Source of the DNA: a virus
Taxonomy: Duplodnaviria > Heunggongvirae > Uroviricota > Caudoviricetes
IMG/VR virus record: IMGVR_UViG_2778261121_000003
Location: 1 to 45,596 of that record
DNA: 45,596 nucleotides
Direction: 5' to 3' (one strand)
This document shows, in pieces, positions 11,570 through 32,320 of this stretch. The translations under genes were made by a program, and so were the position numbers. The first letter of the stretch is position 1; every line of letters starts with the position of its first letter. The notes below the pieces were generated by a model. The model saw nothing but the letters and a program-made list of their open reading frames with translations, did not search any database and was not told the origin of the DNA.

Positions 11570-12490
11570 ATGCCAGAACAAAAGATGAAGATTACGGAAG
11601 AGGCATTTTCGGATTTTACGGGGCATATGTGCCGTGCCGGATTTACCAATTCTATCTCCAACGAACCTTTAACCGATCGACAGCAGAGTCAGCTATCTGC
11701 TTGTTTACAGGCGATTCCTTTCTTCCAAACCGTAAATATCACCCCGGTATCGCCGTCAATTATGGTTGGGGAAACGGTTCAATTAAGTGCAGGTATCACA
11801 ATGAGCAAGAGTGTTAGTTCGTTTACTTGGGAATCAGACAATGATCGAATTGCAACAGTAAACGACAGTGGGCTGGTGACAGGTGTGAATCCAGGGAAAG
11901 TAAATATTACTGCCACCGATCGGGAAACCCAGCTTTCAGCATCAGTGGAAGTTACGGTGAACCCAATTGCCGTTCAATCCGTAACTTTAACGCCGAACTC
12001 AACGAGTGTTGAGAAGGGTAATACGGTCAATCTGACAGCAAATATTCAACCGTCTAATGCGACTAATAAGGCAGTTACATGGACTTCCAAAAATGAGGAC
12101 AAGGCAACGGTAGACCAGAGTGGAAACGTTACTGGTGTTGAGGTTGGGACTGCCATAATCGAGGTTACTACAGAAGATGGCGGCAAAAAGGCAACCGCAA
12201 CGGTGGAAGTAACATCGCCTGTTGTGTCTGTTACTGGTGTCGAGATTGAACCAAGCAGCACGACAGTTGAAGAAAACAGCACTGTTCAGTTGACCGCAAA
12301 TGTAGAACCGGCAGGAGCCACAAATAAAACCGTTACTTGGGAATCCAAAAATACCGAGTTTGCAACGGTGGACAGCGAAACCGGTGTTGTAACTGGTGTT
12401 GCGGCTGGCACTGCCACAATCGAGGTTACTACCCAAGATGGTAGCCACAAAGCGACAGCTACTGTAGAAGTTACTGCCGCACAGGAATAA
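11570..12490 (+). CDS. Ig-like (BIG2-type) repeat protein, possible head decoration/surface protein
   Basis: 306 aa with three tandem ~85-aa repeats (pattern V..V.L.P....V..G.TV.LTA...P..ATNK.VTW.S.....ATVD..G.VTGV..GTA.I.VTT.DG...A...V.V); SD AGGAG. Confidence 0.75.
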   Translation: MPEQKMKITEEAFSDFTGHMCRAGFTNSISNEPLTDRQQSQLSACLQAIPFFQTVNITPVSPSIMVGETVQLSAGITMSKSVSSFTWESDNDRIATVNDSGLVTGVNPGKVNITATDRETQLSASVEVTVNPIAVQSVTLTPNSTSVEKGNTVNLTANIQPSNATNKAVTWTSKNEDKATVDQSGNVTGVEVGTAIIEVTTEDGGKKATATVEVTSPVVSVTGVEIEPSSTTVEENSTVQLTANVEPAGATNKTVTWESKNTEFATVDSETGVVTGVAAGTATIEVTTQDGSHKATATVEVTAAQE

Positions 12491-15103: not shown

Positions 15104-15150
15104 TAGCGCAATGAATGCGTAGAATTAACGGAAAAAGGAGTTTTCCATCA

Positions 15151-15888
15151 ATGTCTAATACCCATGTAAAAAACATCAAACTTGGTGCCTGTAAGGTGTC
15201 GTTTGGTGGTGTGGATTTGGGTTACACCAAAGGTGGTGTTCAGGTTGAAGTGGCGACTGAGACTCTGAAAGTCACCGTAGACCAGCTAGGACAAACAACA
15301 ATATCCGAGTTGGTTCAAGGGCGTAACATCACCATCACTGCGCCTTTAGCAGAATCTGTGCTCAAAAATATGGTCGACTTGATGCCCGGCTCTTCTATGA
15401 GTGAAGAGGGGGATGTGGTGACTATTACATCAGCATATGGCGTAAACCTTATTGATGTGGCAAAAGAGTTAATCCTGACACCTCAGGATGGAACAGACTA
15501 TGTGCTGATTATTCCCAAAGCCGCTACAGCAGGCAACTTCACTATGACCTACCAGTCTGATGATGTTCGAGTGTTCTCTGTAGCTTTCTCTGCATACCCT
15601 GATGATAATGGTGTTCTTGGAAAAATGGCCACGCCTAAGCCTGTTCAAAGTGTAACTATTTCACCAGCATCACCTACTGTAAATGTTGGTGAAACAGTGC
15701 AGTTGAGTGTGGGTTTTACTCCGGCTGAGGCGACTAATAAGACGGGAATTTGGTCATCTGACTCTGAACATGCGAATGTTGATCAGAGAGGTTTAGTTAC
15801 AGGTGTAAGTGAGGGAACTGCAAATGTAACCTTTACGTCTGATGATGGCGCAAAAACGTCTACCGTCTCAGTCACCGTATCTGAATAA
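15151..15888 (+). CDS. major tail protein with C-terminal Ig-like (BIG2) domain
   Basis: Start ATG 15151 with AAGGAG SD; C-terminal ~80 aa match the Ig-like repeat pattern of the 11570 gene; followed by a terminator; position before the G/T chaperone and tape measure (lambda gpV-like architecture). Confidence 0.7.
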   Translation: MSNTHVKNIKLGACKVSFGGVDLGYTKGGVQVEVATETLKVTVDQLGQTTISELVQGRNITITAPLAESVLKNMVDLMPGSSMSEEGDVVTITSAYGVNLIDVAKELILTPQDGTDYVLIIPKAATAGNFTMTYQSDDVRVFSVAFSAYPDDNGVLGKMATPKPVQSVTISPASPTVNVGETVQLSVGFTPAEATNKTGIWSSDSEHANVDQRGLVTGVSEGTANVTFTSDDGAKTSTVSVTVSE

Positions 15889-21644: not shown

Positions 21645-22343
21645 ATGGGAATTAAAGCTGATATTCAGAGCTTATCTCCCTCTGCACTCATTGAGTTGTT
21701 CGTACTGGATATGTCGAACACAACTTCAGGGGGGGAGCTGTTCTTCCACGCCGGAACAAACGAACTGATGCAACCGGTCGTTTGGCAAGGAGTGACATAC
21801 GAGCCGTGGCCAATCAAAGCATCAGGCTTTGACAAAACTGGCCAGGGAACGTTGCCACGTCCAAAAATTCAGGTATCGAACTTTGCCGGAATCGTCTCTG
21901 CGGAAGTTCAGGCAAACGACGATCTCGTTGGCTGCCGCATTATTCGCAAGATGACGCTGGCTCGCTTCCTCGATGCCGTTAATTTTAAAGACGGCAACCC
22001 AACAGCAGATCCAAACCAACATTTCCCGGATGAAATGTGGTTTATCGAACAGAAAACTCTCGAAACTCATCAGGTTGTCGAGTTTGAATTGTCCAGTGTG
22101 TTCGATTTGATGGGGGTGCAACTGCCGTATCGTCAGATCATTAAAAACACCTGCCCGTGGAAATACCGAGGGCCAGAATGCGGCTATACCGGCCCATATT
22201 TCGACAAAAATAACCAGCAGACGTCTATGTCTGGTGCGGATTACTGCACAAAACGTTATGACGCCTGTAATGCGCGTCGGAATTATTTTGCCAACGGTGT
22301 GATCCATTTTGGCGGGTTTATTGGAGCTACGCGGTATGGGTAA
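21645..22343 (+). CDS. minor tail protein (lambda gpL-like, Fe-S cysteine motif)
   Basis: ARFLDAVNF and CPWKYRGPECGYTGP closely resemble lambda L (ARFLDAVNF / CTWTYRGDECGYSGP); preferred start ATG 21645 with AAGGA SD (track start 21612). Confidence 0.9.
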   Translation: MGIKADIQSLSPSALIELFVLDMSNTTSGGELFFHAGTNELMQPVVWQGVTYEPWPIKASGFDKTGQGTLPRPKIQVSNFAGIVSAEVQANDDLVGCRIIRKMTLARFLDAVNFKDGNPTADPNQHFPDEMWFIEQKTLETHQVVEFELSSVFDLMGVQLPYRQIIKNTCPWKYRGPECGYTGPYFDKNNQQTSMSGADYCTKRYDACNARRNYFANGVIHFGGFIGATRYG

Positions 22344-23133
22344 TAAAGCAATCCCTGAGCTTGGCTCTGACGTTATGCAGCAAATCTATCTCTGCGCCAT
22401 AAATCGCTACCCTAATGAAGCGTGTGGCTTTCTGGTTAGAACTAATGGCGACAAATATCGATTTATGGAAGCGCGGAATGTTTCGGAGAACCCGCAGAAC
22501 ACTTTTGTAATGCACGTTGACGACATTATGGCGGCAGAGGATGCGGGTGATGTTATCGCAATCTGGCATTCACATACTGATGAATCAGCAGAAGCATCTG
22601 ATGCCGATCGTGCAGGCTGCGAAGCGACGGAAGTTCCGTGGATGATTCTGGCTATTCGCAAGAATGTTGAGGGAGATGCCCCTTTCCATTTTAGCGAGAT
22701 GAATGTGATCACACCTGATGGTTTCGAAATGCCATACCTGGGCAGACCGTATGTATTTGGCGTATTCGATTGCTGGATGTTGTGTCGGGACTATTTGAAG
22801 CGTGAGTTTAACGTCGAACTAAACCCGAACGCACACCTGCATATTCCATCGTGGTACACCGGCGATAACGACATTCTCGACCAGAACTACCGAAACGAAG
22901 GATTGGTACGGCTTGCGCCCGGAACAGAACCTCAACGTGGGGACGTCTTCTTTATCCAATACGGGAAAATGCCTGACCACTGCGCGGTTTATATCGGCGA
23001 TGGGATGATTCTTCATCACCAGATCGACCGCCTAAGTTGTCGTGCTTATTACGGCGGAATGTATCAGAAACATACGACGCATCACTTGCGTCACAGAGAC
23101 TTGCTCAAGGGAGATGAGACGTGTCTGAGTTAG
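22309..23133 (+). CDS. tail tip assembly protein (lambda gpK-like; JAMM/MPN plus NlpC/P60 domains)
   Basis: HSHTDESAEASDADRAG (JAMM-type HxH...D) and FDCWMLCRDYL (NlpC/P60-type catalytic Cys); start uncertain (22309, 22336 or 22375). Confidence 0.85.
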   Translation: MAGLLELRGMGNKAIPELGSDVMQQIYLCAINRYPNEACGFLVRTNGDKYRFMEARNVSENPQNTFVMHVDDIMAAEDAGDVIAIWHSHTDESAEASDADRAGCEATEVPWMILAIRKNVEGDAPFHFSEMNVITPDGFEMPYLGRPYVFGVFDCWMLCRDYLKREFNVELNPNAHLHIPSWYTGDNDILDQNYRNEGLVRLAPGTEPQRGDVFFIQYGKMPDHCAVYIGDGMILHHQIDRLSCRAYYGGMYQKHTTHHLRHRDLLKGDETCLS

Positions 23134-23732: not shown

Positions 23733-26700
23733 ATGGAACAGTTCAAGAAGAAAAAGTTACCGCTGTTTATTGCAGGTGCGGGTGGTAAAAAAAGCAGCAA
23801 AAGCTCTAGCCGTACACCGGTTGAAGCCGACGATACCGTAAATTCTCGTGCAATGGCCGCTATCCTCGATCTTCTTGGGGAAGGGGTAATTGGCGGCTTG
23901 GTAAATGGCGCAAGATCTATTTTTATCGACGATCTGCCGATTGTAAATGAAGACGGTTCCTCCAACTTCAGCGGAATCACATGGGATTTTCGCGACGGTT
24001 CGCAAGACCAGACTCCAATGTCTGGCTTTGATTTCGTTGAAACGCCTAAATCCGTCAATATCCAGTTAAAAAAAACACATTATGTAACGGTTTCAATCGA
24101 TAACGATGAAGCTGATCGGGTTCGTGTCATCATGAAGTTTCCTTCTTTGCGAAGCATAGATAAAAAAACTGGTGACACGAACGGTACAACCGTTGAGTAC
24201 AAGTTCCAGATAGCAAATGGCGACTCAACATTTGTAGATGTGGTCGCAGAAGGTGAAAAAAGCGTTGGCATTAAGCTAACTGCAAAGAAGACAGGTGTTT
24301 ATTACCGTAGCTATGAGCTGAAGCTGCCTAAGCCTGGACGCGCGTACAAGGTTCGTGTAGTCCGTATTACCGATGATAACAGCAGCCAGTATCTCTATAA
24401 CGATACATGGGTGGACTCAATAGGTGAGATTGTAGATACACCGATGAACTACCCAAACTCTGTGCTGGTGGGTCTGAAGATTAATTCTGAGCAATTTGGT
24501 AGCACCATGCCATCTCGTTCGTATTTGGTGCGTGGATTAAAAATTCGCGTGCCGTCAAACTACAACGAGGCAAGCAACACTTATGATGGTGTATGGGATG
24601 GCACTTTTAAGCTGTTGTCTTCTTCAAACCCTGCGTGGATTCTCTTTGATTTGCTTACCAATGCTCGATATGGCCTTGGTCAGTATGTGTCGGAATCTAT
24701 GATTGACCTCGGCCAGCTATACCAGATCGGTCGATATTGTGACGAAGAGGTTGATGATGGCTTTGGTGGTAAAGAGAAACGCTTTGCAATCAATACGCAG
24801 ATCACCAGTCGACAGGACGCATACCGATTAATTCAGGATATTGCCGGTGCATTCCGCGGTATGGTGTTTTGGGCTGGTGGCATGGTTAACATCATGCAGG
24901 ATAGTCCATCAGATCCGGTAATGATGTTTACCAACTCCAACGTCAAAGATGGACTGTTTACCTATAAAGGTTCTGCGCGTAAAGATCGCCCATCCGTTGC
25001 GCTCGTAACCTACAACAACAAGGAGGACGGTTATAAGCAAAACATCGAGTACGTTGAAGATCAGGACGCAATGCGCCGTTATGGTGAGCGTAAAACAGAA
25101 GTCGTAGCATTTGGATGTACAAGCCGAGGCCAGGCTCACCGAGTTGGTTTGTGGCTTTTGTATACCGCCAGAATGGAGTCGGATGTAATTACATTTACTG
25201 CCGGTTTAGACGCCTCATTTCTGATGCCCGGTGAAACCGTTCTGATTCAGAACAAATATCGTGCAGGTAAACGTAACTCCGGTCGAATTGTGGAGTTTAC
25301 CAAAAACAGCATCACTCTCGATGCGCCTGTGTCGTTAGCTAAAAGCGGGAGCTTTATTCGGATACTGAATCAGGAAGGCAAAATCGTTGAACGCGATGTT
25401 CTTGAAACTGGCGAAAACATAACAAAGGTTACATTTTCAAAAGCCCTGTCGTCAGCTGAAACACCTGTTTTGAACGGTGTCTGGACAATTACAGAACCAG
25501 ATCTCGAACCTATGCGCGTTCGCATCGTTAACATCGCGCAGGGGGAAACTCCGGGTAGCTTTGACATCACCGCTGTTGAGAACAATTCGTCTAAATATGA
25601 GGCTATTGACAATGGTGCAACGCTTATCCCGCAGAATACGACGGTATTGGACCCGACTTACTCCAAGCCATCTAATTTGCAAATCACTGAAGGGACTTAT
25701 CTCTCAAGCCCGGGCAACCTGTCAGTAAAACTGACTGCAACATGGGAAGGGAAATCTCCAGAGTATTGGATCAGTTGGCGACGTTCTGATGAAAACAATG
25801 TATCGAACTGGCAATCGGCGCGTGTAACCGAAGAGCAATACGAAATCGTTAATGTCGCGGAGAATGGACGCTACGACTTCCAACTGTATGCGGTTTCATT
25901 CAACGGTAAAAAAACAGAGATTATCAGTACCGTTTATCAGGTGTTGGGCACGATGACACCGCCGGATGCCCCAACGTCATTAACGGCCGTTGGAGACTAT
26001 CGTAATGTGATACTGAATTGGGTTAATCCAGATTCGGTAGACCTTGATCACATTAATGTTTACGCATCCCAGACCAACAATCTGGATACGGCGAAACTGA
26101 TCGCAGAGTCTGCAAGCACCACCTTTACACATGCTGGTCTTGGGGATAGCGAAACGTGGTATTACTGGGTTCGAGCATCGAACAAGCGCGGCATGTTAAG
26201 TCCTCCGAACTCAAACTTGGGTACAGAGGCGACAACTCGCGATGTACTGTCGTTCCTGGAAGGTAAGATTACATCGTCTGAGCTTGGTCAGGCTCTGCTT
26301 GAGGACATCAACAGCAAAGCCTCTCAGGAAGCAGTTGACGAGTTAAATGAGCATATCAACCAGAGCGTCGAATCTTTGGAGGGGACGGTAAACAACGTTA
26401 AGGAAGATATAGCTGACTTAGAAAAGCAGTTCAGCGACAACATCGCGGACTTTGAAATAACCTTCAATGAGCGCAGCGATGCTTTGGAGAGTGCGCAAAA
26501 CGAGCTTAGAGGTGAGGTTTCTGCAACGATCGATAAGGTCAATGAAGCGTTTGAAAAAATTGATGCTACTAATGCTGCAATTGTTGAAATCGAAAACACC
26601 GTATCTGAACACGATACTGCACTCGCTAACGCAGCCGAGGCGATAAGTGCGGCAAGAAACGAAGCTGCGGCTCTTATTGCTGAGGAGCGCGAGGCTCGTG

Positions 26701-28460
26701 TAGAAGGTGATGCTGCAAACGCTAAACAACTGGAAGTGTTGCAGTCAACGGTAGAGGAAAGCTCCGCTGCCGTTGAAGAAATGAAAAAGACGGTTGCAGA
26801 GGTCGATCGTGCCAGCGCAGAACTTACTACGAACATTGAGGCGTTGGCCAAAACAAATATTGACCTGGCTCTTCGTCAAGATGAAGACCAGCACAAGCAG
26901 ATGGTCAATAACGCGAAGATCTCAACAACACAGAAAACCTTTGCTGATGATATGTCTGCAATGGCTACGAAGGTTGAAGAGATTCGTGTTGAACTTGAAG
27001 AAGACATCAGGAGTAGCATTCTGGAAGAATCTACCGCGCGCGTAGATGGTGATGAAGCGTTGTCAAACCGTGTAACTCAGCTGCAATCTAAGTTTGAAGG
27101 AGATATCAGCGCGGCGATTAGCACAGAACAGGAGGCTCGTGCATCTGCTGATGAGGCTCTGACAACACAGATCACTCAGCTTGAGTCAAAAGTAAGTAAC
27201 GATATCGTAGCGGCAATTAAGGAGGAGCAAGAAGCACGAGCAACGGAAGATTCTGCGCTGGCAAGCCAGATCACTCAACTTCAGGCAAAAGTTGATGATG
27301 ATATTTCTGCTGCAATACGTAGTGAGCAGGAGGCTCGTGCAAACGGGGACTCTGCTTTAGCCCAACAAATAAACCAACTCCGGGCACGGGTTGACGATGA
27401 TATATCAGCAGCCATTACTCAAGAGCAGGAAGCAAGAGCAAGTGCTGATGAGGCTTTATCCCGAGAAATTAACAGTCTGCGAGCGCAGACTGAAACTGAT
27501 ATTGCCGCAGCTGTTGCTGTAGAGACAAAGGCAAGGACGGATGCCGATAGCGCATTATCCAGCCAGATTACATCTCTTACAGCAAAAGCTAATGATCTCG
27601 AGGCGTCTATTGCCAGAGAGACAATTGCTCGAGCAGATGGTGATGAGGCTTTAACAAGAGATTTATCAAGTTTAATAACTCAGACGACGAATGATATTAG
27701 AGCAGATATAACAACTGAAGCACAGGCCAGGGTTGATGCTGACTCGGCATTATCATCGCGGATTACCACACTAACCTCCAAATATAAGGACGACATAAAA
27801 GCTGCGATTGCAACTGAGACGCAAACACGTACAGAGCAGGATGCTGCATTGGCGACTCAAATCACAAATTTAGAGTCTCAAACAGCAGCCAACATTTCTG
27901 CGGCGGTCACAACCGAAACGACAGCGAGAACGCAGGCAGATAATGCTCTGGGTGGTCGAATTGATACTCTTAGAGCTGAGGTGAATGGAAATAGTGCAAC
28001 AATTCAACAGCAGGCGACAGCTATTGCTGATACAAACAGAAAAGTATCAACTGCGTATACGTTGAAAATGGAAACCTCCACTAGCGGAGGACAGAAGTAC
28101 GTTGCAGGCATTGCTCTTGGAATTGACACAACAGGTCTTTCTCAGTTTTTGGTGCAGGCGGATAGATTTGGTTTGGTTAACTCAGTAAACGGGCAGATCA
28201 CCACGCCATTTGTTATCGAAAACAGTATCGCTTACATGAATGGTGCGTATATCAAGGATGGTACAATCACCAATGCAAAGGTAGGTGATCTGCAATCTAC
28301 CAATTTTGTTAGCGGTAGATCTGGATGGCGGTTTGGCAAAAATGGAACGCTTGAGATCAACGGTAATAGCGGAGGTAATGGGCGACTGGTCATAAATGGT
28401 CAGCGGATTGACGTTTATGACGATAACAACGTCCTACGAGTAAGAATTGGCCTTCTGTAA
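23733..28460 (+). CDS. tail tip / central fiber protein (lambda gpJ-like) with internal coiled-coil repeat insertion
   Basis: About 1575 aa; blocks such as NYPNSVLVGLKINSEQFGS, AFGCTSRGQAHRVGLWLL and C-terminal KYVAGIALGID...LSQFLVQADRFGLVN match lambda J; about 10 tandem ~33-aa heptad-like repeats (DDISAAI..EQEARA..D.AL...I..L) in the C-terminal third. Confidence 0.9.
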   Translation: MEQFKKKKLPLFIAGAGGKKSSKSSSRTPVEADDTVNSRAMAAILDLLGEGVIGGLVNGARSIFIDDLPIVNEDGSSNFSGITWDFRDGSQDQTPMSGFDFVETPKSVNIQLKKTHYVTVSIDNDEADRVRVIMKFPSLRSIDKKTGDTNGTTVEYKFQIANGDSTFVDVVAEGEKSVGIKLTAKKTGVYYRSYELKLPKPGRAYKVRVVRITDDNSSQYLYNDTWVDSIGEIVDTPMNYPNSVLVGLKINSEQFGSTMPSRSYLVRGLKIRVPSNYNEASNTYDGVWDGTFKLLSSSNPAWILFDLLTNARYGLGQYVSESMIDLGQLYQIGRYCDEEVDDGFGGKEKRFAINTQITSRQDAYRLIQDIAGAFRGMVFWAGGMVNIMQDSPSDPVMMFTNSNVKDGLFTYKGSARKDRPSVALVTYNNKEDGYKQNIEYVEDQDAMRRYGERKTEVVAFGCTSRGQAHRVGLWLLYTARMESDVITFTAGLDASFLMPGETVLIQNKYRAGKRNSGRIVEFTKNSITLDAPVSLAKSGSFIRILNQEGKIVERDVLETGENITKVTFSKALSSAETPVLNGVWTITEPDLEPMRVRIVNIAQGETPGSFDITAVENNSSKYEAIDNGATLIPQNTTVLDPTYSKPSNLQITEGTYLSSPGNLSVKLTATWEGKSPEYWISWRRSDENNVSNWQSARVTEEQYEIVNVAENGRYDFQLYAVSFNGKKTEIISTVYQVLGTMTPPDAPTSLTAVGDYRNVILNWVNPDSVDLDHINVYASQTNNLDTAKLIAESASTTFTHAGLGDSETWYYWVRASNKRGMLSPPNSNLGTEATTRDVLSFLEGKITSSELGQALLEDINSKASQEAVDELNEHINQSVESLEGTVNNVKEDIADLEKQFSDNIADFEITFNERSDALESAQNELRGEVSATIDKVNEAFEKIDATNAAIVEIENTVSEHDTALANAAEAISAARNEAAALIAEEREARVEGDAANAKQLEVLQSTVEESSAAVEEMKKTVAEVDRASAELTTNIEALAKTNIDLALRQDEDQHKQMVNNAKISTTQKTFADDMSAMATKVEEIRVELEEDIRSSILEESTARVDGDEALSNRVTQLQSKFEGDISAAISTEQEARASADEALTTQITQLESKVSNDIVAAIKEEQEARATEDSALASQITQLQAKVDDDISAAIRSEQEARANGDSALAQQINQLRARVDDDISAAITQEQEARASADEALSREINSLRAQTETDIAAAVAVETKARTDADSALSSQITSLTAKANDLEASIARETIARADGDEALTRDLSSLITQTTNDIRADITTEAQARVDADSALSSRITTLTSKYKDDIKAAIATETQTRTEQDAALATQITNLESQTAANISAAVTTETTARTQADNALGGRIDTLRAEVNGNSATIQQQATAIADTNRKVSTAYTLKMETSTSGGQKYVAGIALGIDTTGLSQFLVQADRFGLVNSVNGQITTPFVIENSIAYMNGAYIKDGTITNAKVGDLQSTNFVSGRSGWRFGKNGTLEINGNSGGNGRLVINGQRIDVYDDNNVLRVRIGLL

Positions 28461-28552: not shown

Positions 28553-31500
28553 ATGTGGTACAGGGAAGGTACTATCACATTTACACAGGGTAGTAATACT
28601 CTAGTTGGGGTTGGGACAGCCTGGAACGTAACAGCTAATGGTGTGTTGCCGGGAATGATCGTCATTGGTCCCGACAATAAGCTGTATGAGATCAAGCGTG
28701 TAACCAGTGATACGAATATTGTTCTCTCAGAACCTTATACCGGCGAAACTCAGTCTGAAGTTCCGTGCCGAATCATTACGACCTATGAAGGCGACTTAAC
28801 ACAGTTTAGCGCGCGCTTTACTGCGCTAATGTCGCGTATGTCGGCTGATTCCAAGTCCATGCGCAGTTGGTTGACTGCGCTGGATGAGGTGACAATCGAG
28901 CGTGAAGACGGTACAGAAGTGACCGTTAAGCCGCTGATGCAGATCGTCAACGAGCACAACGAAAACGTTGAGTGGTATAAAAATAACACCGACGCGATTG
29001 ACGCTGCTGGCGACAAAGCTCGTGAGGCGGCGGCCAGTGCTGCCGCAGCAGCAGAAAGCGCCAATACCGCTGGAGAAAAAGCATCTCAAGCGTCTCAAAG
29101 TGCACAGGCTGCAGCTTCGTCACAAAGTGCCGCTAGCGCGAGTGAGTCTGCTTCAAGGGTATCTGAAACGAACGCAGAATTAGCAAAAGAAGCAGCTGCA
29201 CAATCGGAGGCTATCGCATCATCAGCAGCTGCTGCGGCTAATGAAAAAGCTATAGAGGCCACAAATCAGGCAACAACTGCGAAAAATTATGCATTAGAAG
29301 CAAAGTCATCTGAATTAAATGCAAAGGCTTCAGAAGACAATGCGGCTTCCTCTATGGCCGCAGCTGCTGAATCTGCAAGTTCTGCGTCTTCATCAGAGAG
29401 TTCTGCTTCTGCTTCAAAAGATGAGGCTGCACGTCAAGCATCTGAGGCTGCTGGAAGTGCTGTGATAGCGTCAACAAAGGCAACAGAGGCGGAAGGCAGT
29501 GCTACGGCTGCATCTCAGAGCAAAACTGCTGCTGAATCCGCTGCGATACGTGCAGAAGCTGCCGCTGATCGTGCTGAGGAGATTGCCGGTGCAGTTGCGA
29601 TGGAAGACGCAAGTCTTACAACTAAAGGTGTTGTGAAACTTAGTAGTGCTGTCGACAGCACCAGTGAATCGCTGGCCGCAACGCCAAAAGCAGTTAAAGC
29701 AGCCAATGACAATGCAAATAGCAGGTTGGCGAAAAATCAGAACGGTGCAGATATCCAGGATAAATCAGCTTTTCTGGACAATGTTGGCGTCACCAGCCTG
29801 ACGTTTATGAAAAACAACGGAGAAATGCCGGTTGATGCTGACCTGAATGCTTTTGGCCCCGTTGAGGCTTATCTTGGCGTCTGGTCTAAAGCAACATCCA
29901 CCAACGCAACACTGGAGAAAAATTTCCCGGAAGATAATGCTGTCGGTGTGCTTGAGGTTTTTGCAGCTGGCAATTTTGCAGGTACGCAACGCTTCACCAC
30001 GAGAGACGGCAATGTATACATACGCAGACTCGCCAATAAGTGGAATGGCTCTGATGGTCCGTGGGGCATATGGCGTCACACTCAATCAGCTACCCGCCCT
30101 TTGAGTACGGCTATAGACCTGAATACGCTTGGAGCCGCCGAACATCTTGGTTTATGGCGTAACAGTAGCTCGGCTATAGCTTCATATGAACGCAATTATC
30201 CAGAGGAAGGCGGCTTTGCTCAGGGGATGCTTGAGATCCTCGAAGGCGGAAATTATGGAAGAACGCAACGTTATACCACTCGCCGTGGAAATATGTATGT
30301 CCGCTGCCTTGCGGCAAGCTGGGATGCATCAAATCCGCAGTGGGAACCGTGGTTAAGAGTCGGTCATCAGTCAGAGAGCCGTTATTACGAAGGTGATTTG
30401 AATGTTCTAACCGACCCTGGTATTTACAGTGTGACGGGTAAAGCGAGCAATGGTCCATTGCTGGATTCATCCGGTGCAACACTACTAGGGGTGTTAGAGG
30501 TTATCAGACGTTTTGATTACGTTGCCGTATTGCAACGCTATACCACAACAGGGACAGGAACGACAACGAAAGGTCGCTCATATGAACGAGTCTATACCGC
30601 CAGCTCATGGAGCGAATGGCGGGAAGTCTACACCTCGTATTCACTTCCCCTGAATCTGGGTATCGGTGGCGCAGCAGCAAAACTCACCAGTCTGGACTGG
30701 CAGACCTACGACTTTGTGCCGGGCAGTCTGATAACCGTTCGGCTGGATAACATGACCAATATTCCCGACGGTATGGACTGGGGGGTCATTGATGGCAACC
30801 TGATAAACATCGCTGTTGGCCCAAGTGATGATACCGGTACGGGACGCTCAATGCATGTATGGCGCAGCACTGTAAGTAAAGCCAACTACCGCTTTTTTAT
30901 GGTGCGTATTTCAGGAAATCCGGGAAGCCGCACGATCACAGCAAGACGTGTGCCAATTATCGACGAAGCCCAAACCTGGAGTGCTCACCAGACATTCAGC
31001 GGTGGTCTTGGCGGAGAGCTGTCCGGCAATGCTGCTACAGCTACTAAATTGCAGACAGCAAGAACCATCGGTGGTGTAAGCTTCGATGGCACTGCTAATA
31101 TTAATTTGCCTGGTGTTAATGCTGCCGGTAATCAGAACACTACCGGTAACGCGGCCACAGCGACCAAGTTGCAAACTGCTAGAACTATTAACGGGGTGTC
31201 GTTTAACGGCTCTGCGAATATTTCAATACCAACAATTACGTCCAGAGGACGCGTTACTGCGCTCACCGGTACAACACAAGGTGCTGCGACTGGATTGCAG
31301 ATGTACGAGGCATATAACAATGGTTATCCTTCTGATTACGGAAATGTACTTCACTTAAAAGGGGCAACGGCCGTTGGTGAAGGCGAGTTGTTCATTGGCT
31401 GGAGTGGTACAAGTGGCGCTCATGCACCTGTACATGTACGTTCGCGACGAGATACTGATACGGCTAGTTGGTCAGAGTGGGCGCAAGTTTATACGTCCAA

Positions 31501-32320
31501 AGACTCAATTCCGGGTGTTAATGCCACCGGTAATCAGAATACTACTGGCAATGCAGCATCAGCCACAAAGTTACAAACTGCCAGAACAATTGGAGGTGTT
31601 AGTTTTAACGGTACAGCCAATATTAACTTGCCGGGCGTTAATATAGCGGGTAATCAGAATACGACTGGCAATGCAGCATCAGCCACAAAGCTACAAACGG
31701 CTCGAACTATAGGTGGTGTTAGTTTTAACGGTACAGCCAATATTAACTTGCCCGGTGTGAATATAGCGGGTAATCAGAATACGACTGGTAATGCTGCAAC
31801 CGCCACAAAATTGCAGACAGCAAGGAAAATTGCTGGTGTGGCGTTTGATGGCTCTGCCGATATAACTTTGACTGCGACTAATGTTAATGCTTATACGAAA
31901 ACAGAGGTAACAAACCTTCTAAGTTCCTATGTGAAGAGCACTGCTCTTCCAAGCATGACTGTGCGAACTTCCTCTGTTTCTGGTGGGGATATGGGCATGA
32001 GTTTGTCTGCATTCATTAGCCACCTTAGATCAAATGGAGCGTTTAGCAAAAGTTATTGGATTGGCTTTGGCGATGCTATGGGATTCAATGCTGGCAGTAT
32101 AAACAATATAACGGGATTTGGTGCTGTAGAATTAGCAGAATCTATAATCGAAGTTTTTAATCTACCTAACGGTGATTATACAATTCGTTTAACAACGTCA
32201 CACAAAGCTGATTACGGTGGAGTGACAAACGCAATCCTCGTTTATCACTACCGTAGTAATAGAAGTCCGTCAGGTCAATGGCTTAAATTTGCCGGTACTG
32301 TTGGGGCAACAAGCAACTGA
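28553..32320 (+). CDS. long tail fiber protein (repeat-containing)
   Basis: 1255 aa; N-terminal Ala/Ser/Glu-rich low-complexity helical region; five copies of a ~40-aa module NQNTTGNAA(S/T)ATKLQTARTIGGVSFNGTANINLPGVN with near-identical 120-bp DNA repeats. Confidence 0.85.
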   Translation: MWYREGTITFTQGSNTLVGVGTAWNVTANGVLPGMIVIGPDNKLYEIKRVTSDTNIVLSEPYTGETQSEVPCRIITTYEGDLTQFSARFTALMSRMSADSKSMRSWLTALDEVTIEREDGTEVTVKPLMQIVNEHNENVEWYKNNTDAIDAAGDKAREAAASAAAAAESANTAGEKASQASQSAQAAASSQSAASASESASRVSETNAELAKEAAAQSEAIASSAAAAANEKAIEATNQATTAKNYALEAKSSELNAKASEDNAASSMAAAAESASSASSSESSASASKDEAARQASEAAGSAVIASTKATEAEGSATAASQSKTAAESAAIRAEAAADRAEEIAGAVAMEDASLTTKGVVKLSSAVDSTSESLAATPKAVKAANDNANSRLAKNQNGADIQDKSAFLDNVGVTSLTFMKNNGEMPVDADLNAFGPVEAYLGVWSKATSTNATLEKNFPEDNAVGVLEVFAAGNFAGTQRFTTRDGNVYIRRLANKWNGSDGPWGIWRHTQSATRPLSTAIDLNTLGAAEHLGLWRNSSSAIASYERNYPEEGGFAQGMLEILEGGNYGRTQRYTTRRGNMYVRCLAASWDASNPQWEPWLRVGHQSESRYYEGDLNVLTDPGIYSVTGKASNGPLLDSSGATLLGVLEVIRRFDYVAVLQRYTTTGTGTTTKGRSYERVYTASSWSEWREVYTSYSLPLNLGIGGAAAKLTSLDWQTYDFVPGSLITVRLDNMTNIPDGMDWGVIDGNLINIAVGPSDDTGTGRSMHVWRSTVSKANYRFFMVRISGNPGSRTITARRVPIIDEAQTWSAHQTFSGGLGGELSGNAATATKLQTARTIGGVSFDGTANINLPGVNAAGNQNTTGNAATATKLQTARTINGVSFNGSANISIPTITSRGRVTALTGTTQGAATGLQMYEAYNNGYPSDYGNVLHLKGATAVGEGELFIGWSGTSGAHAPVHVRSRRDTDTASWSEWAQVYTSKDSIPGVNATGNQNTTGNAASATKLQTARTIGGVSFNGTANINLPGVNIAGNQNTTGNAASATKLQTARTIGGVSFNGTANINLPGVNIAGNQNTTGNAATATKLQTARKIAGVAFDGSADITLTATNVNAYTKTEVTNLLSSYVKSTALPSMTVRTSSVSGGDMGMSLSAFISHLRSNGAFSKSYWIGFGDAMGFNAGSINNITGFGAVELAESIIEVFNLPNGDYTIRLTTSHKADYGGVTNAILVYHYRSNRSPSGQWLKFAGTVGATSN

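What the first reader, a model, noticed from the sequence alone, without database searches (positions are those of the whole stretch)
27040..27990. Array of about ten ~33-aa coiled-coil repeats inserted in the J-like tail tip protein
Between the conserved lambda-J-like N-terminal body and the conserved C-terminal block, the protein carries tandem repeats of the form (D/N)DISAAI..EQEARA..D.AL..QI..L..K, roughly 99 bp each at the DNA level. This predicts a long trimeric coiled-coil stalk not present in lambda J. Such repeat arrays can vary in copy number by recombination and change fibre length.
Basis: seen in the sequence. Interest (0 to 1): 0.4.

Follow-up and report, generated by a model that had tools for sequence, protein, structure and literature searches.

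The report
Repeat-built shaft of phage tail-tip fibre
The tail-tip protein of this SSU5-like phage-plasmid carries ten 33-residue repeats that form the long helical shaft of its central fibre, a known kind of shaft that in a related bacteriocin snaps from coiled coil to beta-sheet to power entry, and whose repeat number changes one unit at a time among relatives.

Summary
The J-like gene (23733-28460, 1575 aa) contains ten in-register units (nine of 33 aa, one of 32) at aa 1090-1418, nt 27000-27986. Lag-33 identity is 0.47 against 0.10 in shuffles.

Relative to lambda J, 560 residues (aa 860-1419) stand where lambda has five.

The unit is homologous to the cryo-EM-resolved trimeric coiled-coil shaft of F-type pyocin central fibres. 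Unit positions E10, R14, L21 and I25 correspond to E1039, R1043, L1050 and I1054. A 2026 preprint shows that this pyocin shaft switches into a beta-prism on cell contact.

Every unit here carries that paper's SxSxxMxxLxS motif in both orientations. AlphaFold2 predicts units 8-10 as helix in a long construct (pLDDT about 51-75 there). In a short construct it predicts them as three beta-hairpins (pLDDT 92.5).

Copy number is 4, 5, 6, 9, 10 or 11 in SSU5-group plasmids, and 21 in a related J-like protein from a metagenome-derived database. Four independent one-unit gains or losses map to units 4/5, with chimeric junctions at 11-nt identities.

Verdict: a real feature and a new member of a known kind. 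The coiled-coil reading is right but incomplete. Whether this phage's shaft actually switches fold is inferred, not shown.

The parts
23733..28460 (+). J-like central tail fibre / tip attachment gene (1575 aa plus stop)
   Evidence: ORF. Pfam finds FNIII-A_GpJ, Phage-tail_3, fn3 and Phage_Tail_Tip. It follows M-, L-, K- and I-like genes. It is 92.6-93.9% identical in DNA to the J gene of Escherichia phage Cyrano and CMS-2020a.
23784..26309 (+). Lambda-J-like hub and FNIII body (aa 18-859)
   Evidence: BLASTP to lambda J residues 2-835, 32% identity, E 6e-115. PDB sequence hits to the F2 pyocin fibre, T1 gp33 and lambda gpJ.
26310..26999 (+). Non-repetitive proximal shaft (aa 860-1089), probably an ordinary heptad coiled coil. 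It includes one degenerate unit at aa 977-1008 (nt 26661-26756).
   Evidence: Hydrophobicity periodicity is 3.55 residues. The degenerate unit scores 15 bits. This region has no counterpart in lambda J. No structure was predicted for it here, so the helical state is inferred.
27000..27986 (+). Array of ten 33-residue units (aa 1090-1418; u7 is 32 aa)
   Evidence: Predicted helical in AF2 job 1. Units 8-10 are predicted as beta-hairpins in AF2 job 2. The motif SxSxxMxxLxS is present reversed in 10/10 units and forward in 9/10.
27297..27494 (+). Units 4 and 5, the pair at which all observed one-unit gains and losses in relatives occurred
   Evidence: Chimeric units are seen in PhiR41_1, pCUPF07B (11 units) and the CT01 plasmid (9 units). 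pPEC178_2 shows a clean loss of u4. Crossovers lie at 11-nt identical runs.
27339..27353 (+). ANGDS of unit 4 (aa 1203-1207), the only break in the predicted helix
   Evidence: AF2 job 1, residues 114-118. Gly at unit position 17 occurs only in units 1, 4 and 7. Any role as a side-fibre docking kink is a lead from the F2 pyocin and is untested.
27987..28457 (+). C-terminal beta domain (aa 1419-1575; PF09327 at aa 1423-1557), homologous to the lambda central straight fibre
   Evidence: Pfam E 6e-41. Predicted as beta strands in both AF2 models. Foldseek hits lambda gpJ 8xcj and the SU10 tail tip fibre 7z4b.
28553..32320 (+). Downstream side tail fibre gene (1255 aa); context, a possible partner of the shaft
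   Evidence: Pfam Phage_fiber_2. The Cyrano homologue is annotated as a P1 S-like tail fibre.

Best explanation
[quoted passage not shown] This shaft links the lambda-like tail-tip cone to a small beta-structured tip domain.

**Helical state.** Each 33-residue unit is three 11-residue turns of coiled-coil periodicity. The core is I3, I7, L21, I25, L28 and V32, plus a conserved charged ladder E10-R14-D18. At about 0.15 nm per residue, the array alone would add roughly 49 nm.

**Beta state.** The same units also encode a second fold. Small residues at positions 5, 13, 15, 20, 22 and 30, and Asp at the turns (positions 2 and 18), fit a beta-hairpin per unit. The hairpins would stack onto the C-terminal beta domain.

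**Proposed mechanism.** By homology with the F7 pyocin, the shaft is most likely a metastable pre-infection state. On receptor engagement it would zip into a beta-prism, starting from the tip domain. That would shorten the fibre about five-fold, open the tail tip and help release the tape measure protein.

**Length variation.** Unit number changes in evolution by unequal recombination at short identities between neighbouring units. This changes shaft length, and stroke if the switch occurs, in steps of 33 residues.

**Shown versus inferred.**
- Shown here: the repeats, their absence from lambda J, homology to the pyocin shaft, the motif, both AF2 predictions, the copy-number series and the junctions.
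- Inferred: trimeric state, the fold switch in this phage, and its functional role.
For: **Repeats and periodicity:**. The unit hydrophobicity profile has power at 3.67 residues (helical) and its strongest harmonic at 2.06 residues (beta-like). The proximal shaft shows only 3.55.

**Homology to a solved coiled coil:**
- HMMER aligns aa 1273-1547 to F2 pyocin fibre residues 914-1193 (25vf_A, domain E 3e-24).
- Counting along the alignment gives E10=E1039, R14=R1043, L21=L1050 and I25=I1054.
- These are the residues described as a buried salt bridge and as core knobs in the cryo-EM coiled coil.
[quoted passage not shown] **Motif:** 26 matches in the array against 4.6 expected (maximum 13 in 2000 shuffles). 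They fall at fixed unit positions 5 (reversed) and 20 (forward).

**AF2:**
- aa 1090-1575 is predicted helical up to aa 1406. pLDDT is about 70-77 over most of the array, falling to 51-69 in the last units.
- aa 1320-1575 is predicted all beta with two strands per unit, pLDDT 92.5 and pTM 0.73.

**Family-wide conservation of both residue sets:** 1647 units from 217 proteins.

**Copy-number series and junctions:**
Against: - No trimer could be modelled, and no structure exists for this protein or any SSU5-group virion tip.
- The two AF2 jobs differ in construct length and alignment depth. MAFFT may have placed non-homologous beta segments of short homologues over units 8-10, which could favour the beta model. 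The other four models of that job scored lower (77.5-85.4).
- The fold switch rests on one preprint. Its authors note that lambda and T5 do not show it.
- F-pyocin units other than the last are diverged, and the pyocin shaft was described as heptad-based with a stutter, not as a 33-residue repeat.
- The unit logo is biased, because the units were collected with an HMM built from this window.
Confidence: 0.6

Rival explanations
1. The array is a static trimeric coiled-coil spacer. It only sets the distance between the tail tip and the receptor-binding end, and perhaps offers docking sites for side fibres. It does not change fold during infection.
For: - AF2 gives a helical model for the whole array.
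- The homologous pyocin shaft is a coiled coil that carries side fibres.
- Copy number varies freely between 4 and 21 units, as expected for a spacer.
- Lambda and T5 work without such a switch.
Against: - Small residues at six positions per unit are 83-99% conserved across the family. These positions are described as solvent-exposed in the coiled coil, so a pure spacer would not need them.
- The strongest periodicity of the unit is beta-like.
- AF2 gives a confident beta model for units 8-10.
- The pyocin homologue does switch.
Confidence: 0.28
2. The units are beta-structured already in the mature virion. They would form a long beta-prism continuous with the lambda-like central straight fibre, and the helical prediction is an artefact of monomer modelling.
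For: - The beta model has the higher confidence (pLDDT 92.5 against about 51-75 for the same residues).
- The C-terminal domain is homologous to the lambda beta-structured straight fibre.
Against: - The homologous unit of the F2/F7 pyocin is a coiled coil in the assembled pre-ejection particle by cryo-EM.
- The invariant E10-R14-D18 ladder at i, i+4, i+8 and the 3.67-residue hydrophobic period make sense only in a helix.
Confidence: 0.1
3. The periodicity is a compositional or chance effect of an Ala/Glu/Thr-rich segment, with no structural meaning.
For: Tandem Repeats Finder does not report the array, and DNA identity between units is only 39-66%.
Against: - z = 22 (protein) and z = 15 (DNA) against shuffles.
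- Six columns are invariant in ten units.
- The same unit is found in 2267 representative proteins.
- Positional orthology of units holds between relatives.
Confidence: 0.01

Closest known systems
Central fibre protein of F-type pyocins (PA0641 / PyoF10; PDB 25vf; F7 pyocin, PMC12874032)
   Same: - Same J-like body, then a trimeric alpha-helical shaft, then a PF09327-type beta tip with no lambda-type receptor-binding domain.
- The last shaft unit aligns residue for residue (E1039, R1043, D1047, L1050, I1054).
- Same SxSxxMxxLxS motif and the same Glu-Arg i/i+4 pair.
   Different: - The pyocin switching segment is 163 residues, about five units, and its inner units are diverged with indels. Here there are ten regular units, 329 residues, plus about 230 further shaft residues.
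- This one belongs to a DNA-delivering phage-plasmid, not a bacteriocin.
- The switch is demonstrated only for the pyocin.
Phage T1 central fibre protein gp33 (PDB 9l9p; PMC11945409)
   Same: J-like protein with 33-residue units (DDIQASLTDIREVIATETEALSREIDQLKAQIG) before the tip domain. HMMER E 3.4e-12 over the repeats.
   Different: - T1 units have hydrophobic residues (I, I, T) where this array has E10, R14 and D18.
- T1 has fewer units.
- The T1 C-terminus was not resolved and is known only from an AF3 model.
Lambda gpJ (PDB 8iyk, 8xcj)
   Same: The hub, FNIII domains and beta straight-fibre domain are homologous, and the gene order is the same.
   Different: - Lambda has five residues where this protein has 560, and no unit.
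- Lambda has a C-terminal LamB-binding domain that is absent here.
SSU5-group phage-plasmid J proteins (SSU5, pHCM2 of S. Typhi, pMT1 of Y. pestis, Cyrano/pLF82)
   Same: Same architecture. The first and last units are conserved, and a degenerate unit lies 114 residues upstream.
   Different: Unit number is 4 (pHCM2), 5 (SSU5), 6 (pMT1) or 9-11 (E. coli lineages). Some carry an extra 110-140 residues after PF09327.
Short fibres of podophages DEV (gp56, PDB 9ze4) and SU10 (PDB 7z4b_EA)
   Same: A few related units followed by the PF09327 domain. gp56 is described as having a coiled-coil domain.
   Different: They are not fused to a J-like hub. They have only two or three units. The DEV model is an AF3 model docked at 8.5 A.

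Membership tests
Lambda gpJ-like tip attachment / central tail fibre protein (TipJ) | Hub domain (Phage-tail_3) and FNIII-A_GpJ domain | tested here: met
   PF13550 E 7.5e-34 and PF24801 E 1.5e-29. 32% identity to lambda J over 876 columns.
Lambda gpJ-like tip attachment / central tail fibre protein (TipJ) | Central straight fibre domain (PF09327) C-terminal to the FNIII domains | tested here: met
   PF09327 E 6.1e-41 at aa 1423-1557. Foldseek hits lambda 8xcj.
Lambda gpJ-like tip attachment / central tail fibre protein (TipJ) | Gene order tape measure, M, L, K, I, J | tested here: met
   Pfam finds TMP, Phage_min_tail, Phage_tail_L and JAB plus NlpC/P60 immediately upstream. The Cyrano annotation agrees.
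Fold-switching coiled-coil shaft of central fibre proteins (F7 pyocin type, PMC12874032) | Sequence homology to the pyocin shaft | tested here: met
   HMMER domain E 3e-24 to 25vf_A residues 914-1193. Residue correspondence.
Fold-switching coiled-coil shaft of central fibre proteins (F7 pyocin type, PMC12874032) | SxSxxMxxLxS motif in alternating orientation | tested here: met
   Reversed motif at unit position 5 in 10/10 units, forward at position 20 in 9/10. 26 matches against 4.6 expected.
Fold-switching coiled-coil shaft of central fibre proteins (F7 pyocin type, PMC12874032) | Acidic residue at the M position paired with Arg four residues away | tested here: met
   E10 and R14 are invariant in all ten units, and 99% across the family.
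Fold-switching coiled-coil shaft of central fibre proteins (F7 pyocin type, PMC12874032) | Shaft ends directly on a beta-prism seed | tested here: met
   Beta strands start at aa 1411, inside unit 10, in the helical model.
Fold-switching coiled-coil shaft of central fibre proteins (F7 pyocin type, PMC12874032) | AlphaFold returns both a helical and a beta conformation for the same residues | tested here: met
   Monomer models only, with different constructs and alignments, so this is weaker than the published trimer test.
Fold-switching coiled-coil shaft of central fibre proteins (F7 pyocin type, PMC12874032) | Trimeric coiled coil in the assembled particle and conversion to beta-prism on cell contact | not testable with these tools
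   Needs cryo-EM or cryo-ET of virions, or at least trimer modelling.
Canonical heptad coiled coil | 3.5-residue hydrophobic periodicity | tested here: not met
   The array peaks at 3.65-3.67 residues (33/9, hendecad-like). Only the proximal shaft, aa 866-1089, peaks at 3.55.
Curated repeat families (Pfam Phage_fiber, Phage_fiber_2 and others) | Match to a curated repeat model | tested here: not met
   No Pfam family above its cut-off between aa 824 and 1423. PHROG tail-fibre families do cover the region.

The most novel reading that the evidence does not exclude
The shaft is a quantised spring. Each 33-residue unit is an autonomous fold-switch module: about 5 nm of three-helix bundle that collapses into one beta-hairpin layer of about 1 nm. 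Unequal recombination adds or removes modules (4 to 21 seen in this architecture). That would tune both the reach of the fibre through capsule or O-antigen and the stroke and stored energy of tail-tip opening. The natural 9/10/11-unit alleles in E. coli plasmids, and the 4/5/6-unit alleles in pHCM2, SSU5 and pMT1, would then be functional variants rather than neutral length polymorphisms.
Probability: 0.35. Interest if true: 0.65.

Novelty: new member of a known kind. Interest (0 to 1): 0.45.

Why it matters
How long non-contractile tails get the energy to open their tip and breach the envelope is an open question. The only proposed answer of this type, a coiled-coil-to-beta-prism switch, has been shown for one bacteriocin.

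This window gives a regular and much longer example in a real temperate phage-plasmid family. That family includes pMT1 of Yersinia pestis, pHCM2 of Salmonella Typhi and about 3% of complete E. coli genomes.

It also supplies two things:
- A simple rule, one 33-residue unit per beta-hairpin.
- A natural allelic series of unit numbers, which makes the relation between shaft length, stroke and infectivity directly testable.

If the switch does not occur here, the finding is an ordinary, well-delimited coiled-coil spacer.

Tried and rejected
- **Tandem Repeats Finder** found nothing relevant. The units are too diverged in DNA.
- **Pfam** has no model for the unit.
- **Foldseek against PDB** with both models returned only the C-terminal domain homologues (lambda, SU10). 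It returned neither a coiled-coil nor a beta-prism match for the units. Monomer fibres superpose poorly, and the F7 post-ejection structure did not appear among the hits.
- **The Cyrano paper** (PMC9928086) gives virion dimensions but nothing on the tip fibre.
- **The hendecad literature search** gave nothing specific.
- **Super-repeat of three units:** suggested by Gly17 in units 1, 4 and 7, but rejected because those units are no more alike than others (36-39%).
- **Frequent recombination or phase-variation-like length switching:** rejected because units share at most 15 identical bases, and 55 of 60 sampled E. coli plasmids have exactly ten units.
- **Klebsiella relatives** (J of 2868 aa) could not be used for unit counting, because they have no clean units.
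- **Trimer modelling** was not possible with the tools. A linked pseudo-trimer was not attempted, because the linkers would need to span more than 25 nm.
Full report
**Context.** The window is part of an SSU5-like phage-plasmid.
- The J-like gene is 92.6-93.9% identical in DNA to Escherichia phage CMS-2020a and phage Cyrano (pLF82).
- Neighbouring genes encode terminase, Ig-decorated structural proteins, tape measure, M-, L-, K- and I-like tip proteins, a side tail fibre, a DnaB-like helicase, a primase and a ligase.
- The gene with the finding runs 23733-28460 on the + strand and encodes 1575 residues.

**Observation.**
- In register, aa 1090-1418 (nt 27000-27986) form ten units: nine of 33 residues and one (u7) of 32. 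The consensus is xDIxAAIxxExxARAxADxALxxQITxLxAKxx.
- Six columns are invariant (E10, R14, D18, A20, L21, L28). Four more are at least 90% conserved.
- Within the array, identity at lag 33 is 0.466 against 0.098 in shuffles (z = 22).
- In DNA, identity at lag 99 is 0.521 against 0.293 in codon shuffles (z = 15).
- The DNA signal is carried by codon positions 1 and 2 (0.57, 0.64), not position 3 (0.36). The repeats are therefore old and kept by selection on the protein.
- Units are 39-66% identical in DNA and share at most 15 identical bases. This explains why Tandem Repeats Finder misses them.

**Relation to lambda J.**
- BLASTP aligns query 18-859 with J 2-835, and query 1420-1508 with J 841-931. 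So 560 residues (aa 860-1419) occupy the place of five residues in lambda.
- The unit HMM finds nothing in lambda J.
- The extra segment has two parts.
  - The proximal part (aa 860-1089) is non-repetitive. It has a clean 3.55-residue hydrophobic period and one degenerate unit.
  - The distal part is the ten-unit array.
- After the array come 157 residues that match PF09327 (E 6e-41). Both AF2 models predict this part as beta strands resembling the lambda central straight fibre. There is no lambda-type receptor-binding domain.

**What the units are.**
- Sequence search of solved structures finds J-like proteins with related shafts: the F2 pyocin fibre (25vf), T1 gp33 (9l9p), DEV gp56 (9ze4) and the SU10 tail tip fibre (7z4b).
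- Counting along the HMMER alignment to the F2 pyocin fibre gives E10=E1039, R14=R1043, D18=D1047, L21=L1050 and I25=I1054.
- Three 2026 papers describe this part of the pyocin fibre.
  - L1050 and I1054 are core knobs-into-holes residues (bioRxiv 2026.02.24.707460).
  - E1039-R1043 form a buried salt bridge (PMC12874032).
- So the unit here is homologous to an experimentally seen trimeric coiled coil.
- AF2 on aa 1090-1575 with 78 homologues gives one long helix up to aa 1406. The single break is at ANGDS of unit 4. pLDDT is about 70-77, falling to 51-69 in the last units.
- The core spacing within a unit is 4-3-4 | 4-3-4 | 3-4-4. That is three hendecads, 3.67 residues per core position, not heptads.

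**The second fold.**
- He et al. [quoted passage not shown]
  - Gln substitutions at small residues block killing without blocking assembly.
  - Each beta strand carries SxSxxMxxLxS, read in the direction of the strand.
- Every unit here carries the motif twice.
  - Reversed: A5-x-I7-x-x-E10-x-x-A13-x-A15, in 10/10 units.
  - Forward: A20-x-A22-x-x-I25-x-x-L28-x-A30, in 9/10 units.
  - The total is 26 matches against 4.6 expected, with a maximum of 13 in 2000 shuffles.
- The strongest harmonic of the unit's hydrophobicity profile is 2.06 residues, a strand-like alternation. Helical harmonics come next. The proximal shaft lacks the beta signal.
- A second AF2 job on aa 1320-1575 (units 8-10 plus the tip domain, 121 homologues) gave a confident all-beta model, pLDDT 92.5 and pTM 0.73.
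  - Each unit is a hairpin of two strands of about 14 residues (unit positions 3-16 and 19-32).
  - The turns fall at the conserved (A/G)17-D18 and at D2.
  - The hairpins continue into the PF09327 strands.
- The same residues were helical in the first job. This reproduces, in monomer form, the behaviour the preprint reports for 21 of 24 phage central fibre proteins.
- Caveats: the two jobs differ in construct and alignment, the other four models of the second job scored 77.5-85.4, and alignment artefacts cannot be excluded.

**Why both folds seem selected.**
- I collected 1647 units from 217 proteins.
  - E10 and R14 are 99% conserved and D18 94%. An i, i+4, i+8 ladder is meaningful in a helix.
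  - Small residues are 83-99% conserved at positions 5, 13, 15, 20, 22 and 30. These positions are described as exposed in the coiled coil and as packed at the prism corners.
  - Both results come from one search, which is biased by HMM selection.
- I7 and L28 would be buried in both folds.

**Geometry (inference).** Ten units as helix come to about 49 nm, and the whole 560-residue shaft to about 80 nm. As hairpins, ten units come to about 10 nm.

**Copy number.**
- Using the unit HMM on relatives gives these counts:
  - pHCM2 (S. Typhi): 4 units.
  - SSU5, a S. Senftenberg plasmid and two E. coli plasmids: 5 units.
  - pMT1 (Y. pestis), Citrobacter and Enterobacter plasmids: 6 units.
  - PhiR41_1, the CT01 plasmid and pPEC178_2: 9 units.
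  - The window, Cyrano, both CMS-2020a records, a Shigella sonnei plasmid and p1448_4: 10 units.
  - pCUPF07B: 11 units.
- A related J-like protein of 2138 residues has 21 units in strict register.
- The first and last units are conserved, and changes are internal.
- Orthologous units are more alike than paralogous ones. The diagonal of the identity matrix is 63-100% for the 10-unit relatives Cyrano and CMS-2020a SCU-175, with one exception (unit 7, 42%).
- Four one-unit events are resolved at the base level, all between units 4 and 5.
  - PhiR41_1 has a chimera with the crossover inside the shared run GCTGCTATTAA.
  - pCUPF07B has an extra unit made of the 5' part of u5 and the 3' part of u4.
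  - The CT01 plasmid has the reciprocal chimera. Both crossovers lie around the shared run GAGCAGGAGGC.
  - pPEC178_2 lacks u4 exactly.
- In complete E. coli genomes the allele family is present in 168 of 5426, always on plasmids of roughly 110 kb. 55 of 60 sampled records have exactly ten units.
- Copy number therefore changes by rare unequal recombination, not by rapid switching.

**Module boundaries.** DNA identity to PhiR41_1 and CMS-2020a SCU-175 falls from 98% to about 60% at J nucleotides 2400-2700 (about aa 800-900), around the end of the FNIII body and the start of the shaft. The shaft plus tip behaves as an exchangeable module.

**Distribution.**
- A profile of the ten units finds 2267 representative proteins at E up to 0.001, and 233 at E up to 1e-30. 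Arrays reach 20-30 units, mostly followed by PF09327.
- Unit spacing in the family is 32-36 residues.
- Ten units is therefore not exceptional.

**Verdict.**
- The feature is real, well delimited and correctly read as a coiled-coil stalk absent from lambda J.
- It belongs to a kind that became known in 2026: the alpha-helical shaft of J-like central fibres, with a proposed coiled-coil-to-beta-prism switch.
- What this window adds:
  - a very regular 33-residue unit that maps one-to-one onto a predicted hairpin;
  - AF2 support for both folds;
  - a natural series of unit numbers with resolved recombination junctions.
- The fold switch in this phage is inferred by homology and prediction, not shown.

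Noticed in passing
window 27339-27353 (aa 1203-1207, ANGDS of unit 4); Gly17 also in unit 1 (about nt 27048) and unit 7 (about nt 27639): Gly at unit position 17 occurs only in units 1, 4 and 7. The only break in the AF2 helix is at unit 4. In the F2 pyocin a Gly kink in the shaft is where the side fibres dock, so these could be docking sites for the fibre encoded at 28553-32320.
   Followed up: partly
window about 26130-26430 (J nt 2400-2700, about aa 800-900); loci L002 and L004: DNA identity to PhiR41_1 and CMS-2020a SCU-175 drops from 98% to about 60% around the end of the FNIII body and the start of the shaft. This is a mosaic junction that makes shaft plus tip an exchangeable module.
   Followed up: partly
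window 27690-27788 (unit 8); L001 unit 8: Unit 8 of Cyrano is only 66% identical to unit 8 of the window but 75% identical to unit 6 of the window. DNA identity dips to 73% here. This suggests gene conversion between units within the array.
   Followed up: partly
L005 6001-14607 and L007 5412-14018 (Klebsiella SSU5-like phage-plasmids): The J-like protein is 2868 residues, nearly twice the length. It shares the first 55% with the window at 76% DNA identity and then has no clean 33-residue units.
   Followed up: no
L009, L010, L014, L015, L016 (pHCM2, pMT1, pLAO4, pEh65, a Citrobacter plasmid): After the array these J proteins have 269-296 residues instead of 157. They carry an extra distal domain that the window lacks. 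pMT1 and the Citrobacter plasmid also have a DUF4376 gene between J and the side fibre gene.
   Followed up: no
window 27987-28457: The J protein ends with PF09327 only and has no lambda-type receptor-binding domain. As in the F-pyocin, T1-like phages and DEV, the receptor-binding protein may be a separate product.
   Followed up: no
window 22309-23133: The K-like tip protein combines a JAB/MPN domain and an NlpC/P60 peptidase domain, as in lambda gpK.
   Followed up: no
window 11570-12490 and 15115-15888: Two structural proteins carry Big_2 Ig-like domains (three copies and one copy). They are probably capsid or tail-tube decoration.
   Followed up: no
protein P0121 (2138 aa): A J-like protein with the same layout, with the degenerate unit 114 residues upstream but 21 units in strict 33-residue register. 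This is twice the window's array.
   Followed up: partly
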